Source: a candidate division Zixibacteria bacterium SM23_73_3 (GTDB taxonomy: Bacteria > Zixibacteria > MSB-5A5 > SM1-73). From it: DNA of 49,649 nt. The notes beneath the pieces were generated by a model. It saw nothing but the letters and a program-made list of their open reading frames with translations. It made no database searches and was not told the origin of the DNA. The stretch spans positions 1 through 49,649 of the forward strand of contig LJUX01000021.1 of NCBI GenBank assembly GCA_001304155.1. The letters are read 5' to 3'. This document shows positions 10,417 through 24,155 of the stretch, piece after piece (the stretch's first letter is position 1; each line of letters opens with the position of its first letter). The translations under genes and the position numbers were made by a program.

Positions 10417-11472
10417 ATGAATAAATCTAAAAAGGAAGAAAGACGCTTAGGCGAAATCGCTGAGCATGTAGAAGGGGTGTTGGTGGGGGACCCTTCCATT
10501 AAAATAAAGGGGGTAGCTGGAATCGAAGATGCTCAAACGGGCGATCTGACCTTTTTGGCTAATCCTAAATATGCGGGTTTTCTGGAAACCTCCTCTGCAT
10601 CAGCAGTGATTGTGGGAAGGGAAACAAAAACAGAGGGAATCAAAATATCTCTAATCAAACACCCTAATCCCTACTTAGCCTTCGCTAAAGCGGTAGAGCT
10701 TTTTTTTGAAACCAAAAGGACCTATCCTGAGGCTGTTCATCCCACTGCAGTCTTAGGGGAAGAGGTGAGGGTAGAACGGGGAGTGTATGTAGGACCTAAT
10801 GCAGTAGTAGAAAAAGGGGCCTGGTTGAAGCGCGGCTCAACTATCCTGGCAGGCAGTTTTATCGGAACCAATTCCACCGTAGGAGAAAACTCGTTTCTCT
10901 ATCCTAACGTCACCATAAGGGAAGACGTAGAGATAGGGAATGATGTGATAATCCATTCTGGTACGGTGATCGGATCAGATGGATTCGGCTATGCCAAAGA
11001 GAAAGGAGTTCATCATAAGATTCCGCAGGTGGGAGGGGTGAGGATAGAGGAGGGTGTGGAAATCGGTGCGAATGTGACTATAGATCGTGCCGTATTAGGC
11101 GTTACTCGAATAGGAAGAGGAACCAAAATCGATAATCTGGTTCAGATCGGGCACAACGTGGACATCGGTGAAAACTGTATCATCGTGGCGCAAGTGGGAA
11201 TAGGAGGGAGCACCAAGGTGGGCAATGATTCGATTCTGGCAGGTCAGGTGGGATTGGTGGGACATATCAAAATCGGCAATCGGGTGGTGATTGGTGCTCA
11301 ATCGGGCGTCACCAAAGATATTCCCGATGATTCTACCGTCTTCGGTTATCCGGCACGTGAGATTCATAAGACCAAAAGAATCGAAGCCCATCTCTCCCGT
11401 ATGGATCTTTATGTAGAGCGATTGAAAGAACTGGAAAAGATGTTGAAAGAAATGAAAAACCCTTCACATTGA
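10417..11472 (+). CDS. lpxD: UDP-3-O-(3-hydroxymyristoyl)glucosamine N-acyltransferase
   Basis: [10 protein letters not shown], hexapeptide repeats, [21 protein letters not shown]. Confidence 0.97.
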
Positions 11473-11495
11473 ATTACAAACCTTTGGAGGTAAAA

Positions 11496-11822
11496 ATGAG
11501 TGAGTTGGTTGAGGTCAACGATAGCAATTTTGAAAATGAGGTTTTAAAGTGTGATAAACCCTGCCTGGTTGATTTCTGGGCGGAGTGGTGTGGACCCTGT
11601 TTAATGGTGCATCCTATCCTGGAGGAGATCGCCAACGAGTATGAGGGAAAGTTGAAGGTAGGAAAGCTGAACGTGGATCAAAACAGCCAGACCGCCGCCA
11701 AATATGGGATTATGAGCATCCCCAGTCTTCTTATCTTCAATGGGGGAAAGGTGGTGGATCAGATCGTAGGTGCGGTGCCAAAGAAACAGTTTGTCGAAAG
11801 AATTGAGAAGATCATCAAATAG
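11496..11822 (+). CDS. trxA: thioredoxin
   Basis: LVDFWAEWCGPC active site. Start moved to the ATG at 11496, after GGAGGT. Confidence 0.95.
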   Translation: MSELVEVNDSNFENEVLKCDKPCLVDFWAEWCGPCLMVHPILEEIANEYEGKLKVGKLNVDQNSQTAAKYGIMSIPSLLIFNGGKVVDQIVGAVPKKQFVERIEKIIK

Positions 11823-11833
11823 AAACTCTACTT

Positions 11834-12262
11834 ATGAGCAATTCTCAACAGCATACCAATCCTGCAGATGAACAGATAAAACAGATTTTGCAGAAATACA
11901 AAAAAGTGGCGGTGGTGGGGCTCTCTCCTGATTCAAGCAGACCTTCCAATGGAGTGGCTCGATATTTACAAAGTAAAGGATTCACGATAATCCCAGTCAA
12001 TCCTGAGGAGACACAGATCTTAGGAGAAAAAGCTTATCCCGATCTGAGCTCTATACCGGAGAAAGTGGAGATCGTGGATATTTTTCGCCGACCTGAGTAT
12101 GTGCCCCCCATAGTGAATGAAGCCATCAAAATTGGCGCTAAGGTTATCTGGATGCAGAAGGGTGTGATAAATTATCCTGCCGCACTTAAAGCCTCCCAAA
12201 ACGGCATCATGGTGGTCATGGACAGATGCATGTTTAAAGATTGTAGGGTCTTGTGTGAATGA
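11834..12262 (+). CDS. CoA-binding protein (YccU-like)
   Basis: KKVAVVGLSP, IIPVNP, VDIFRRPE, IWMQKG, VVMDRC. Confidence 0.9.
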   Translation: MSNSQQHTNPADEQIKQILQKYKKVAVVGLSPDSSRPSNGVARYLQSKGFTIIPVNPEETQILGEKAYPDLSSIPEKVEIVDIFRRPEYVPPIVNEAIKIGAKVIWMQKGVINYPAALKASQNGIMVVMDRCMFKDCRVLCE

Positions 12263-12458
12263 TAAAATCTTGGATAAAGATCGGAAAGTTGCGAAAGATG
12301 GATCAAGCTGCCCTGTTAGACAGACTTCTGAGCAGACTATCGAAATTCTCGTGAAAGGACAGGAATGCCCCTTTTGCCATTTCGCCAAGCTAAAAAGGGA
12401 AGGTGACGAGATAGTATGTCCCATCTGTGGATATGGACACAGACCCTCAACCTGATAG
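12255..12458 (+). CDS. small zinc-ribbon protein, candidate C-terminal selenoprotein (...CPICGYGHRPST-U-stop)
   Basis: CPFC-x13-CPIC motif. TGA at 12453-12455 is followed by TAG and a SECIS-like hairpin. Without recoding the CDS ends at 12455. Confidence 0.7.
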
Positions 12459-12492
12459 AAACCTGTAAGGGAGGAGTTTCCTCTTTTTTTTA
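12456..12492 (+). promoter_or_regulatory. hairpin after the zinc-ribbon TGA: candidate SECIS and/or intrinsic terminator
   Basis: Stem AGGGAGGA/TCCTCTTT (12468-12475 / 12479-12486) closes a GTT loop whose G is the 21st nt after the TGA; followed by a T run. Confidence 0.55.
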
Positions 12493-12559: not shown

Positions 12560-12976
12560 ATGTTTATCAATATGTCATGGAAGGGGAACTTGGCTTTTGA
12601 AGCGGAAACCGAGTCTTGGCATCGAATCTTGCTTGATGCTAAGCGAGAGGTAGGCGGGGAAGACAAAGGTCCCCGACCCATGGAGGTTTTGCTGGTCTCC
12701 CTGGCTGGATGCACCGCGATGGATGTTGCCTCCATTTTGAAAAAGAAAAGAGTGAATCTGCAAGACATGACCGTCAAGATTGACGCAAAACAAGCACTCC
12801 AGCATCCAAAATACTTCACCAAAATAGATGTGGAGTTCAATTTTGTGGGGAAAGATATCAAGGAGGAGGATGTTAAACAAGCCATAGAGCTCTCCAAGGA
12901 TAAATACTGTTCGGTTTCAGTTATGTTAAAAGAGAAGGCTGAAATCTCATATCGATGGAATATTGTGAATCTGTAG
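12560..12976 (+). CDS. OsmC/YhfA family protein
   Basis: GPRPMEVLLVSLAGCTAMDV and SKDKYCSVS, carrying the two conserved Cys. Confidence 0.92.
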   Translation: MFINMSWKGNLAFEAETESWHRILLDAKREVGGEDKGPRPMEVLLVSLAGCTAMDVASILKKKRVNLQDMTVKIDAKQALQHPKYFTKIDVEFNFVGKDIKEEDVKQAIELSKDKYCSVSVMLKEKAEISYRWNIVNL

Positions 12977-21176: not shown

Positions 21177-24155
21177 ATGAAAATCTCAAGAAGAGGTTTT
21201 CTAAAGATCTCCGGAGGAGTGACGACTGGAGCGGTCCTGGGCACCTTCGGAGTTCACCTGAAAAGCTCGCAGGCACATGCTCAAACGCTGAAAACCAAAT
21301 ACGCCAAGGAAACCACCACCATCTGTCCATATTGCGGAGTGGGATGCAGTGAGATCGTGTCGGTGAGCAATGACAGGGTGATAAACATCGAGGGCGACCC
21401 GGATCATCCCATCAATCAAGGTTCACTCTGCAGTAAGGGAGAGGCTCTTATTCAAGTGGCAAATAACGAAAGAAGAATGACCAAGATCCTATATAGAGCA
21501 CCTTATAGCGAGAAGTGGGAGGAGAAGAGCTGGGATTGGGCAATACCGGAGATCGCCAAAAGAATTAAGAAGACCAGGGACGAGAGCTGGATGGCGAAGG
21601 ATGGAAAGGGACGGGTAGTCAATCGCACAGAAGCCCTGGCTGGATTGGGCGGAGCCGCTTTGGATAATGAGGAATGTTATCTTTGGTCCAAGCTGGCCCG
21701 AGCCCTGGGTATAGTCTATTTAGAACACCAGGCGCGTATATGACACTCTGCCACAGTCGCCAGTTTGGCGGAAACTTACGGCAGAGGCGCTATGACCAAT
21801 CACTGGATCGATATCAAGAATGCTGACTGCATTATGATCATCGGTTCCAACGCAGCAGAAAATCACCCCATATCCTTCAGATGGGTTAACAAGGCGATGG
21901 AGAATGGCGCCAAGCTCATCAGCGTCGACCCCCGCTTCACCCGCACCTCATCCAGAGCAGATATCTATGCCCCCATAAGGTCGGGAAGCGATATCGCCTT
22001 CGTCGACGGGGTGATGAACTACATCGTGCAGAATAACCTTTTCAACCAGGAATATCTGGTAGATCACACTAACGCCAGCTTCCTGGTCAACACGCAGTTC
22101 GGATTCTCGGACGGTCTCTTCACTGGGTACGACGGGTCGAAAAGAATGTATAAGAAGGATACCTGGCAATATCAACTGGATGAAAGCGGAAATCCGAAAA
22201 AGGACCCAACTCTTCAAGATCCTAATTGCGTATTTCAGCTTTTAAAGAAGCATCTTTCCCGTTACACGCTCGAGAAGGTATCCAGCATCACCGGATGTCC
22301 TGCAGAATTGATTGTGGAGGTGGCGAAAACTTATGGAGCAACCGGAGCCAAGGATAAATCCGCAACCATCATGTATGCCATGGGCACCACTCAGCATACC
22401 GTGGGAACACAGAACGTGCGCACTTACGCCATGCTTCAGCTTCTGTTGGGAAACGTAGGAGTGGCTGGAGGCGGAATCAATGCACTGAGAGGGGAGTCCA
22501 ACGTGCAGGGTTCCACTGATATGGCCATCCTGTTTCACATTCTTCCGGGTTATCTCAAAACTCCAAGGGTAGAGAACCAGACTTTGGCTGAGTATCTGGA
22601 AATGTGGACGCCCAAGTCAAATGACCCTAAGAGCGCTAATTGGTGGCAGCATACCCCTAAATATACGGTGAGTCTGCTGAAGGCTTTCTGGGGAGATCAC
22701 GCCACGAAAGACAACGAATTCGCCTATCAGTATCTTCCCAAGGTGAGCGCAAATTACTCCCACATCTCAATGTTTGAGGCCATGTACGACGGCGTGATCA
22801 AAGGTCTCATATGCATGGGGCAGAATCCAGCCGTGGGTGGTCCTAATGTCCTAAAGGAAAGAAAGGCTCTGGAAAAGCTGGATTGGCTGGTTGCGGTAGA
22901 TCTCTGGGAGACCGAGACTGCAGCTTTCTGGAGTGCTCCTGGAGTTGATCCCAAGAAGATAGGAACCGAGGTTTTTATGCTGCCCGCGGCGGCTTCCATG
23001 GAGAAAGAGGGAAGCATTACCAACAGCGGTCGATGGAGCCAATGGAGATATACGGCGGTTCATCCTCCGGGCGATGCCAAATCCGATCTGTGGATTTTAG
23101 ATCAGATCGGCAAGGAGCTGAAGAAGCTGTACCAAGCCGATACCGGACCCTTCCCTGGCCCCATAGTGCATCTCAACTGGAACTACGGGCCGGGAAGAGA
23201 GGAGCCGGACGTGCATCTGGTGGCTAAGGAGATCAATGGATATGATCTGACCACCGGCAAGCTGATGGCATCCTTCGGAGCGCTCAAGGATGACGGCACC
23301 ACCTCTTCCGGTAACTGGCTGTACTGCGCCAGCTACACCGAGGCCGGTAACATGGCTGCCCGCAGAGATCCCACAGATGCACCCAATAAAATTGGACTTT
23401 ATCCCAAGTGGTCCTGGTGTTGGCCGGTAAATAGAAGGATTATCTATAACCGTGCCTCATGCGATCTTCAGGGCAATCCATATGCTCCTCATAAGTGGGT
23501 GGTCAAGTGGACAGGTCCTGAGACAAAATGGGCCGGTGACGTGCCCGACGGCGGTTGGCCTCCAGGAGATAAATACTCCTTCATCATGAAGCCTGAGGGT
23601 CATGCTCGACTCTTTGGTTTCGGCCTAGCAGATGGTCCCTTCCCCGAACACTACGAGCCTCTGGAGGCGCCGGTGAAGAATGCCATGTCCGCTCAACAGC
23701 TCAATCCGGTTGTCAAAATCTGGTCTGGGGAAATGGATGATGTGGGGACCGTGGAAAAGTATCCCGTCATCGCCACCACCTACCGGGTCACGGAGCACTG
23801 GCAGGCGGGTCAGATGACCAGAAACAATTCCTGGTTGGTGGAGCTCATGCCCGACATGTTCGTGGAGATGAGTAAAACTCTGGCCCAAGCCAAGGGTGTC
23901 AAGAACGGAGACAGGGTAAGAATAAAAACCGCGCGTGGAGAGATAAGTGCGTATGCGGTGGTAACCGCTCGATTTAAGCCATTCAAGCTGAACGGAAAAT
24001 CCTGCGAGCAGATTGGATTGCCATGGCATTACGGTTATAAGGGTCTAGCCACGGGGCACAGCGCAAACTCTTTGACCCCGCATGTGGGTGATGCCAACAC
24101 CATGATACCTGAATACAAGGCGTTCCTCTGCAACGTCGAAAAGGAGGTGGGTTAA
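21177..24155 (+). CDS. fdhA: formate dehydrogenase alpha subunit, selenocysteine-containing (992 aa, Sec at TGA 21741-21743), Tat-exported
   Basis: Twin-Arg signal SRRGFLK; CPYCGVGC Fe-S motif. The two track ORFs are in frame and join as HQARI-U-HSATVASLAETYGRGAMTNHW, the FdnG/FdhA active-site motif. Confidence 0.96.
21746..21786 (+). promoter_or_regulatory. bacterial SECIS element of fdhA
   Basis: Lower stem CTCTGCC/GGCAGAG and apical stem CGCCA/TGGCG with a GTT loop; loop G is the 20th nt after the TGA. Confidence 0.88.

What the first reader, a model, noticed from the sequence alone, without database searches (positions are those of the whole stretch)
12255..12492. Candidate new selenoprotein 1: zinc-ribbon protein with C-terminal Sec in a trxA-yccU-osmC cluster
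Seen: the 66-aa ORF (CPFC-x13-CPIC plus an extra Cys) ends ...GYGHRPST TGA TAG. An 8-bp stem with an A-GTT-T apex follows; its loop G is the 21st nt after the TGA, versus the 20th in the fdhA SECIS of this window. A possible lower helix pairs 12456-61 with 12487-92. Established: bacterial SECIS elements lie just 3' of the UGA with a G(U) in the apical loop, and fdhA shows this organism decodes Sec. Inference: the protein ends in Sec then TAG, giving an exposed redox or metal-binding tail. Neighbours thioredoxin and OsmC fit a redox role. Caveat: the hairpin has a T run and could be only a terminator.
Basis: partly seen in the sequence, partly recalled or inferred. Interest (0 to 1): 0.8.

Follow-up and report, generated by a model that had tools for sequence, protein, structure and literature searches.

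The report
New selenoprotein ending in selenocysteine
A 66-codon zinc-ribbon gene of a Zixibacteria genome almost certainly reads its "stop" UGA as selenocysteine, giving a protein whose very last residue is Sec, and it founds a selenoprotein family that is in none of the family libraries or papers searched here.

Summary
The ORF 12255-12455 encodes a zinc ribbon (CPFC-x13-CPIC) and ends Thr-TGA-TAG. A hairpin with a GTT loop follows.

I read the DNA of 63 homologous genes:
- The codon after the last Thr/Gly is TGA in 61.
- The next codon is a stop in 62.
- Neighbouring genes in the same loci use all three stop codons, and the Thr codon before the TGA uses all four synonyms.

A SECIS-like hairpin (G in the loop, 16-27 nt after the UGA) follows 58 of 60 TGA genes. 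It follows 0 of 118 neighbour-gene stops and 2% of long ORFs in this genome. The stem sequences are unrelated between subfamilies.

The one TAA variant has a weakened hairpin. One variant has Gly (GGA) at the TGA position and ends at the second stop.

The lineage decodes Sec: this genome has a Sec-containing fdhA and tRNA-Sec, and a same-genus genome has selD, selA and selB. SelB is found in 189 of 201 genomes of the phylum.

No NCBIfam or Pfam selenoprotein model matches. No Cys-ended homologue exists.

The function is inferred only: a redox or metal-binding Sec tail, probably working with the adjacent thioredoxin and OsmC. No labelling or proteomic proof exists.

The parts
12255..12458 (+). 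Gene for the zinc-ribbon selenoprotein candidate: GTG start, 66 sense codons, UGA (Sec, codon 67), UAG stop
   Evidence: ORF list. 31 protein homologues of the same length and end. The start is supported by the 79%-identical P0002 of equal length.
12453..12455 (+). UGA read as selenocysteine (last residue)
   Evidence: TGA at the aligned position in 61 of 63 homologous genes. Neighbour genes vary in stop codon, and the preceding Thr codon uses ACC/ACG/ACT/ACA.
12456..12458 (+). True stop codon (UAG)
   Evidence: A stop (TAG, TAA, once TGA) follows directly in 62 of 63 genes. In this genome's long ORFs only 16 of 255 TGA stops are followed by TAG or TAA (20 of 255 by any stop).
12467..12487 (+). 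SECIS-like hairpin in the 3' untranslated region; loop GUU at 12476-12478
   Evidence: Core pairs are 100% paired in 31 distinct orthologues, with GC<->AU covariation at two pairs. Loop G and U are invariant. The same architecture occurs with unrelated stems in distant members. Control rates are 0/118 and 16/746. The apex A-GUU-U is the same as in the fdhA SECIS.
12484..12491 (+). Run of 8 T that overlaps the 3' arm; may make this copy of the hairpin also act as an intrinsic terminator
   Evidence: Sequence. No comparable T run is seen in the other 30 orthologues, so termination is not the conserved role.
11469..11822 (+). Thioredoxin gene, conserved upstream neighbour
   Evidence: PF00085 1e-31. 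Synteny in 25+ loci.
11834..12262 (+). CoA-binding protein (YccU/YneT type); its stop overlaps the start of the zinc-ribbon gene
   Evidence: PF13380 1e-40. Synteny.
12560..12976 (+). OsmC-family peroxiredoxin gene, conserved downstream neighbour
   Evidence: PF02566 and NF008009. It is adjacent in the BamA-Skp-LpxD-Trx context and also in an unrelated ABC-transporter/CsoR-like context.
21177..24155 (+). fdhA with in-frame UGA (21741-21743) and SECIS (stem-loop 21758-21770): internal positive control for Sec decoding
   Evidence: TIGR01553 at 1398 bits over the full length only when TGA is read as Sec. Motif QARI-U-HSATVA.

Best explanation
The gene encodes a 67-residue selenoprotein.

Decoding (inferred, with strong comparative support). 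The ribosome reaches UGA at 12453-55. SelB carrying Sec-tRNA(Sec) is held by the hairpin that begins 11 nt further on, with loop GUU and loop G 21 nt after the UGA. SelB inserts selenocysteine, and the UAG that follows ends the chain. The SECIS therefore lies wholly in the 3' untranslated region, and Sec is the C-terminal residue.

The protein. A four-Cys zinc-ribbon (or rubredoxin-like) knuckle core sits between a disordered N-terminal arm and a flexible C-terminal tail. The arm carries one semi-conserved Cys. The tail reads G-[H/R/Y]-x-x-[C/S/V]-T-Sec.

Function (inferred, weaker). The exposed selenol tail acts as a redox shuttle or metal or peroxide ligand. In most members it would form a selenenylsulfide with the Cys two residues before it. 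In this window's protein, which has Ser there, the partner would be the N-arm Cys. The tail most likely passes electrons between the thioredoxin encoded upstream and the OsmC-type hydroperoxide reductase encoded downstream.
For: Stop codon and second stop:
1. TGA is kept in 61/63 homologous genes. In the same loci TrxA uses 10 TAA and 15 TAG, OsmC 6/13/6 and LpxD 14/1/7 (TAA/TAG/TGA). The preceding Thr codon uses all four synonyms.
2. A stop follows directly in 62/63. In this genome's long ORFs only 16 of 255 TGA stops are followed by TAG or TAA, 20 of 255 by any stop.

Hairpin:
3. A SECIS-like hairpin follows 58/60 TGA genes. It follows 0/118 neighbour-gene stops and 16/746 genome ORFs.
4. 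There is covariation inside the orthologues, and the stems are completely different in distant subfamilies.
5. A genome-wide scan for TGA + 19-23 nt + stem with an A-GTT-T apex gives 5 hits against about 1 in shuffles. The top hits include the proven Sec gene fdhA and this gene.

Exceptions that fit the Sec reading:
6. L051 has TAA and a mismatch in the stem, compared with its 77%-identical TGA relative L055. L061 has GGA (Gly) at the position and terminates at the second stop.

Sec machinery:
7. tRNA-Sec is present in this genome, and fdhA contains Sec. The selD-selA-selB cluster is present in same-genus genome G101. This assembly breaks inside prmC, the gene downstream of that cluster in G101. 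SelB is present in 189/201 genomes of the phylum.

Precedent and context:
8. SaoC ends UGA-UAG plus a 7-bp stem with a GGU loop, and KCU-star also ends in Sec (bioRxiv 10.1101/2022.07.06.499078).
9. Trx and OsmC adjacency occurs in two unrelated gene neighbourhoods. A second candidate Sec mini-protein lies in the same operon in about 20 loci. AF2 gives a confident ribbon and floppy tails.
Against: - No Cys-ended homologue was found in 1.84 billion representative proteins or at the syntenic site of relatives. The classical Sec/Cys criterion is therefore not met.
- In the window itself the hairpin is followed by 8 T and could terminate transcription.
- Single-sequence folding is not significant.
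- The Cys at position -2 is Ser in this protein, so the C-x-U redox pair is not universal.
- Two natural variants lack Sec, so Sec is dispensable in some lineages.
- One distant N-extended member (L088) has TGA without a second stop or a hairpin.
- This assembly (82% complete) lacks selA, selB and selD.
- There is no labelling, proteomic or transcript evidence.
- The link to OsmC does not hold for the distant subfamily, whose neighbours are DUF4139 and a CDP-alcohol phosphatidyltransferase.
Confidence: 0.82

Rival explanations
1. UGA is an ordinary stop. The tandem stop and the hairpin form a conserved transcription terminator, or a regulatory or mRNA-stabilising element for the trx-osmC operon. 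The protein ends at Thr66.
For: The window copy has a T8 run after the stem. No Cys homologue exists. L051 ends in TAA with no replacement residue. Tandem stops do occur by chance (20/255 counting any stop).
Against: TGA is fixed in 61/63 genes while neighbouring genes vary in stop codon. No T run is present in the other 30 orthologues. The hairpin keeps a G-containing loop at a fixed distance from the UGA through complete turnover of stem sequence. No such hairpin follows 118 neighbour-gene stops. The GGA variant uses the second stop.
Confidence: 0.12
2. UGA is recoded, but not by SelB. It could be leaky read-through by a near-cognate tRNA (Trp or Cys) stimulated by the downstream hairpin, adding one ordinary residue to part of the molecules.
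For: A stem-loop after a stop can stimulate read-through in other systems (own knowledge). No direct proof of Se exists.
Against: The hairpin matches the bacterial SECIS rules and the fdhA SECIS apex of the same genome. All carriers belong to a Sec-decoding phylum. A one-residue extension by Trp has no evident selective value, and no Trp or Cys codon is ever seen at the site.
Confidence: 0.04
3. The ORF is not a real gene. The conserved element is only an RNA.
For: It is a short ORF with no Pfam family above cut-off.
Against: Protein-level conservation with invariant Cys, Pro and Gly positions and synonymous variation, across about 110 proteins down to about 30% identity. AF2 predicts a zinc ribbon with pLDDT about 80.
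Confidence: 0.02

Closest known systems
SaoC (Cys-Cys-COOH selenoprotein, NF040734), Sec-terminated members
   Same: The gene ends UGA-UAG and is followed by a short perfect stem with a G-containing loop. Sec is the last residue. Annotation pipelines truncate it.
   Different: An unrelated protein of about 158 aa, part of the SAO organometallic system. Most SaoC members have Cys at the site, whereas here no Cys form exists. No HMM match.
KCU-star family selenoprotein (NF033934, Campylobacter/Helicobacter)
   Same: A family defined by a C-terminal Sec directly before the stop, with a Cys close by.
   Different: It has a CU dipeptide; here the motif is C/S/V-T-U. A different fold (DUF466) and different taxa. 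No HMM match.
Dual CXXC motif small (seleno)protein, NF041197 (CxxC_Se_CxxC; OS_HP3 / 'hypothetical protein DW')
   Same: A small protein with two CXXC motifs and one Sec.
   Different: By the model's name, Sec lies between the two CXXC motifs, and the family has Cys homologues. The model does not match 11 members at E<=1. Its best six-frame hit in this genome is 11.9 bits, at another locus.
C-terminal Gly-Cys-Sec-Gly tail of mammalian thioredoxin reductase
   Same: A flexible C-terminal tail with Cys and Sec close together that shuttles electrons as a selenenylsulfide. It can be made in E. coli with a SECIS placed after the stop codon (own knowledge).
   Different: It is a tail of a large flavoenzyme and uses a eukaryotic SECIS. 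Here the tail sits on a 67-aa zinc ribbon, and the nearby Cys is not universal.
E. coli fdhF-type bacterial SECIS
   Same: A stem-loop just 3' of the UGA, with G (and U) in the apical loop about 20 nt after the UGA (own knowledge). The window's fdhA shows the same apex A-GUU-U.
   Different: It lies entirely in untranslated RNA after a stop codon rather than in the coding sequence. No bulged U is evident.

Membership tests
Bacterial selenoprotein gene (Sec-UGA with bacterial SECIS) | UGA conserved at the same codon position across homologues | tested here: met
   61 of 63 genes. Controls vary.
Bacterial selenoprotein gene (Sec-UGA with bacterial SECIS) | Stem-loop shortly 3' of the UGA with G in the apical loop, conserved as a structure | tested here: met
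   58/60 against 0/118 and 16/746. Covariation and complete stem turnover. Rfam found no match in the window.
Bacterial selenoprotein gene (Sec-UGA with bacterial SECIS) | Organism has tRNA-Sec, SelA, SelB and SelD | tested here: inconclusive
   This genome has tRNA-Sec (68.9 bits) and a Sec-fdhA. selA, selB and selD are absent from the 82%-complete assembly. The cluster is present in same-genus G101, and this assembly breaks inside the downstream prmC. SelB is in 189/201 genomes of the phylum.
Bacterial selenoprotein gene (Sec-UGA with bacterial SECIS) | Cys-containing homologues align with the Sec position | tested here: not met
   None among 47 representative hits, 63 close homologues, or the syntenic sites of relatives that lack the gene. 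One Gly variant exists.
Bacterial selenoprotein gene (Sec-UGA with bacterial SECIS) | Selenium physically present in the protein | not testable with these tools
   Needs 75Se labelling or mass spectrometry.
Terminal-Sec ('U-star') selenoproteins: SaoC NF040734, KCU-star NF033934 | UGA directly followed by a stop codon and a hairpin | tested here: met
   Precedent described.
Terminal-Sec ('U-star') selenoproteins: SaoC NF040734, KCU-star NF033934 | Sequence matches the family HMM | tested here: not met
   No NCBIfam selenoprotein model hit at E<=1 for 11 members.
NF041197 dual CXXC motif small (seleno)protein | HMM score at or above 40 bits | tested here: not met
   No hit at E<=1. The six-frame search of this genome finds nothing at this locus.
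Zinc ribbon / rubredoxin-like metal knuckles | Two CPxC knuckles on beta hairpins binding one metal | tested here: inconclusive
   The motifs are invariant. The AF2 core has pLDDT about 80 with two short strands. Only sub-threshold matches were found: Prok-RING_1 at 21.6 bits against a 29.1 cut-off, L37ae at E 1.5e-4, and the rubredoxin knuckle at E 0.004. Foldseek gave E>0.1. The metal is unknown.
Rho-independent terminator | G+C-rich stem followed by a T run, conserved among orthologues | tested here: not met
   A T8 run is present only in the window copy. The scan did not call it.

The most novel reading that the evidence does not exclude
This is a Sec-obligate family with no Cys counterpart anywhere, whose free C-terminal selenocysteine is the working group of a new selenium-dependent peroxide-detoxification relay. 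The relay would run thioredoxin -> zinc-ribbon-Sec (plus, in many genomes, a second, membrane-anchored mini-selenoprotein with a U-x4-C motif) -> OsmC. That would supply the long-sought physiological reductant of an OsmC-type peroxidase.
Probability: 0.25. Interest if true: 0.8.

Novelty: new member of a known kind. Interest (0 to 1): 0.68.

Why it matters
- It adds a selenoprotein family, and probably a second one next door, from a candidate phylum known only from metagenomes.
- It exposes a blind spot. When Sec is the last residue there is no downstream coding conservation, and here there is no Cys homologue either. Homology-based pipelines miss such genes, and NCBI's PGAP was reported unable to predict a C-terminal Sec.
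- The signature that worked here can be searched genome-wide: fixed UGA, an immediate second stop, and a distance-locked hairpin with a G loop.
- The conserved pairing with thioredoxin and OsmC gives a testable lead on how OsmC peroxidases are recycled in anaerobes.

Tried and rejected
- Rfam, at gathering and permissive thresholds, found nothing relevant.
- The simple terminator scan did not flag the hairpin, and the single-sequence MFE was not significant.
- Pfam and NCBIfam gave only sub-threshold zinc-finger hits.
- Foldseek against the PDB gave no significant match.
- Correlating the gene with SelB presence was uninformative, because nearly every genome of the phylum has SelB.
- OsmC presence was equally uninformative (182/201). 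Only adjacency carries information.
- I looked for a hidden Cys form at the syntenic site of 7 relatives lacking the gene and found none.
- The PF03841 hit in this genome (19.8 bits) is not SelA. The best TIGR00475 hit lies in a 760-aa ORF that I take to be IF-2, and the TIGR00476 hits are below cut-off.
- I rejected the idea that the GGAGGA arm acts as a Shine-Dalgarno site. Distant members have unrelated G+C-rich stems, and the next start codon is too far away.

Full report
**Observation.** The window holds, at 12255-12455 (+), a 66-codon ORF: MNDK...ECPFCHFAKLKREGDEIVCPICGYGHRPST. It is followed by TGA (12453-55) and directly by TAG (12456-58). Eleven bases later a hairpin starts: AAGGGAGGA / GTT / TCCTCTTTT, at 12467-12487. 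Its loop G is the 21st base after the TGA. An 8-T run overlaps the 3' arm. The flanking genes are thioredoxin, a CoA-binding protein (PF13380) and OsmC. On its own the hairpin is unremarkable: the folding z-score is -0.9, the terminator scan does not call it, and Rfam finds nothing. Its significance comes only from comparison with relatives.

**The stop codon is frozen.** A protein search found 31 homologues that all end at the same Thr. I fetched the DNA of relatives from genome and metagenome collections. This gave 31 distinct orthologous loci, the window included, all with the gene order BamA-Skp-LpxD-TrxA-CoA-binding-zinc ribbon-OsmC-ComEC.
- In every one the gene ends TGA, followed at once by TAG (28) or TAA (3).
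- In the same loci TrxA ends in TAA 10 times and TAG 15 times, OsmC uses TAA/TAG/TGA 6/13/6 times, and LpxD 14/1/7 times.
- In this genome TGA makes up 34% of the stops of long ORFs. Only 16 of 255 TGA stops are followed in frame by TAG or TAA, 20 of 255 by any stop.
- The Thr codon before the TGA uses ACC, ACG, ACT and ACA. The site is therefore free to mutate, yet the TGA never changes.

**The family is wider and always ends at the same place.** A profile search of 1.84 billion representative proteins found further small zinc ribbons down to about 30% identity. Nearly all of them stop at the same aligned column...CG[YFW]G-x3-4-[C/Y/V]-[T/G]. I read the DNA for 11 of these from other contexts. 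I also read 20 from distant families of the same phylum.
- Over all 63 genes, the codon after the last residue is TGA in 61, and the next codon is a stop in 62.
- L051 has TAA-TAA. Compared with its 77%-identical relative L055 (TGA-TGA), its downstream stem carries an A.C mismatch.
- L061 has GGA (Gly) at the position and terminates at the former second stop.
- One weakly related N-extended gene (L088) has TGA with neither a second stop nor a hairpin.
- No member has a Cys codon at the site.

**The hairpin behaves like a SECIS, not like a terminator.**
- Within the 31 orthologues, five core pairs are paired in every sequence. Two pairs switch between G-C and A-U (7 and 5 sequences). The loop G and U are invariant.
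- The loop G lies 18-23 nt after the TGA, and 21-22 nt in 25 of 31.
- Only the window copy has a T run.
- In distant members the stems are unrelated in sequence (AGAGAG/CUCUCU, CCGCC/GGCGG, GAGGGGC/GCCCCUC and others). A G-containing loop (GUU, GGU, GGC, GGUC, GUA) still sits 16-27 nt after the UGA.
- I applied one fixed definition: at least 5 contiguous pairs, at least 3 G-C, a loop of 3-5 nt with G in its first two positions, and that G 16-27 nt after the stop. Such a hairpin follows 58 of 60 TGA genes. It follows 0 of 118 stops of the six neighbour genes in the same loci and 16 of 746 long ORFs of this genome.
- The window's fdhA matches TIGR01553 at 1398 bits only when its TGA is read as Sec, with the motif QARI-U-HSATVA. 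Its SECIS is CGCCA-GUU-UGGCG, with the loop G 20 nt after the UGA. That is the same A-GUU-U apex as here.
- A whole-genome scan for that signature gives 5 hits against about 1 in shuffles. The hits include fdhA, this gene and a third small ORF in the window.

**Sec decoding in the lineage.**
- This assembly is 82% complete. It has tRNA-Sec at the very end of contig C25 but no selA, selB or selD above cut-off.
- A genome of the same genus (G101) carries selD-selA-...-selB, followed downstream by prmC. In this assembly prmC is cut at the first base of contig C90, and the genes before it are missing. The cluster therefore most likely fell into an assembly gap.
- SelB is over cut-off in 189 of 201 genomes of the phylum.
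- Two of the three other carriers that lack selB in their assemblies do have selA and tRNA-Sec.

**The protein.** AlphaFold2 with 54 sequences gives a small zinc-ribbon core (residues about 30-60, pLDDT about 80). The N-terminal arm and the C-terminal tail are of low confidence. Foldseek finds only generic zinc ribbons at E>0.1. By sequence the nearest solved proteins are L37ae (E 1.5e-4) and the CPxCG knuckle of rubredoxin (E about 0.004). The metal could therefore be Zn or Fe. Invariant or nearly invariant positions are E-x-L, E-C-P-x-C-x-F-A, C-P-x-C-G-Y-G, and the final Thr (Gly in some distant members) before the UGA. Most members have Cys two residues before Sec (C-T-U). The window's protein has Ser there, and others have Val or Tyr. 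Almost all members carry one Cys in the variable N-arm.

**Context and likely function.** Adjacency to OsmC recurs in the Zixibacteria locus. It also recurs in an unrelated neighbourhood: ABC transporter, CsoR-like repressor, zinc ribbon, OsmC (L053, L054). Other members lie after one or two thioredoxins, or before a thioredoxin-like protein. A distant subfamily instead sits between DUF4139 and a CDP-alcohol phosphatidyltransferase. OsmC as such is present in most genomes of the phylum. Relatives without the zinc ribbon have no substitute at the site. I therefore commit, with modest confidence, to a redox-shuttle role of the Sec tail between thioredoxin and OsmC. This is analogous in logic to the Cys-Sec tail of mammalian thioredoxin reductase (own knowledge). 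Metal or peroxide binding by the selenol is the alternative.

**Comparison with what is known.** A 2026 review lists 119 prokaryotic selenoprotein families (PMC13188914).
- Families with Sec at or next to the C-terminus exist: KCU-star, the UXX-star families and SaoC.
- For SaoC, Haft and Gwadz describe exactly this gene end, UGA-UAG and then a 7-bp stem with a GGU loop. They also note that PGAP cannot predict a C-terminal Sec.
- The kind is therefore known, but the family is not. No NCBIfam or Pfam selenoprotein model matches 11 members.
- This includes NF041197, the "dual CXXC motif small selenoprotein". It has Cys homologues, and its model name places Sec between the CXXC motifs.
- Public names for these proteins are "hypothetical", "L37AE/L43A", "UPF0148" or "autoantigen p27 domain".
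- Literature searches for Zixibacteria selenoproteins found nothing relevant.

**Verdict.** This is a new selenoprotein family with Sec as the last residue. The evidence is strong comparative genetics, but there is no physical proof of selenium and no Sec/Cys pair. My confidence that the UGA is decoded as Sec is about 0.8. My confidence in the proposed thioredoxin-OsmC relay is about 0.3.

Noticed in passing
L002:345-515 (also L003, L005, L007, L008, L010-L013, L016, L021, L022, L028-L030, L033-L035, L039); absent from the window: Between the zinc-ribbon gene and osmC, about 20 orthologous loci carry a gene for a ~55-aa single-pass membrane peptide: M(E/D)LKSILIPILIVGGWLVLYG.ILP.LGI(S/N)T-TGA-LK(R/K)SCPVPGEQ.KIE... 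It has a conserved in-frame TGA and conserved peptide on both sides (U-x4-C motif). A hairpin follows in L002 (CTGTTCC-GGA-GGAACAG). This is probably a second unrecognised selenoprotein. There is no Pfam hit.
   Followed up: partly
window 17450 (TGA) and following hairpin: The genome-wide scan for TGA + 19-23 nt + stem with an A-GTT-T apex also hits a small ORF ending TGA CGA AGA TAA, with stem GGTGA-GTT-TCACC.
   Followed up: no
own genome contigs C25:15-108 and C90:1-588: tRNA-Sec sits at the extreme end of contig C25. prmC is cut at the start of C90. In same-genus genome G101, selD-selA-...-selB lie upstream of prmC. The Sec-machinery cluster of this MAG seems to lie in an assembly gap.
   Followed up: yes
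L016:3001-4146: One metagenome locus carries two copies of the zinc-ribbon gene separated by a thioredoxin fragment. Both end TGA TAG plus a hairpin.
   Followed up: partly
L051:999-1190, L061:640-831: Two natural variants lack the Sec codon. L051 ends TAA TAA and has a weakened hairpin. L061 has GGA (Gly) and then TAA, with the hairpin kept.
   Followed up: partly
P0061, P0070, P0077, P0087, P0093, P0099, P0102; L057, L062, L088: A subfamily of 123-139 aa has a long N-terminal extension with a conserved WPGK...HWNPTGFGPGMGP motif before the same zinc ribbon. L057 and L062 end TGA TAG. L088 ends TGA with no second stop.
   Followed up: no
window 12260-12262 and orthologues: The stop of the upstream CoA-binding gene is TGA in 23 of 24 loci, probably because it overlaps the start region of the zinc-ribbon gene (GTGAATGA). 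It has no hairpin by the SECIS test.
   Followed up: partly
L053:3590-3856, L054:3622-3888: In a high-G+C lineage the zinc-ribbon-OsmC pair is preceded by a CsoR/RcnR/CstR-type metal- or persulfide-sensing repressor (PF02583). This hints at stress-regulated expression.
   Followed up: no
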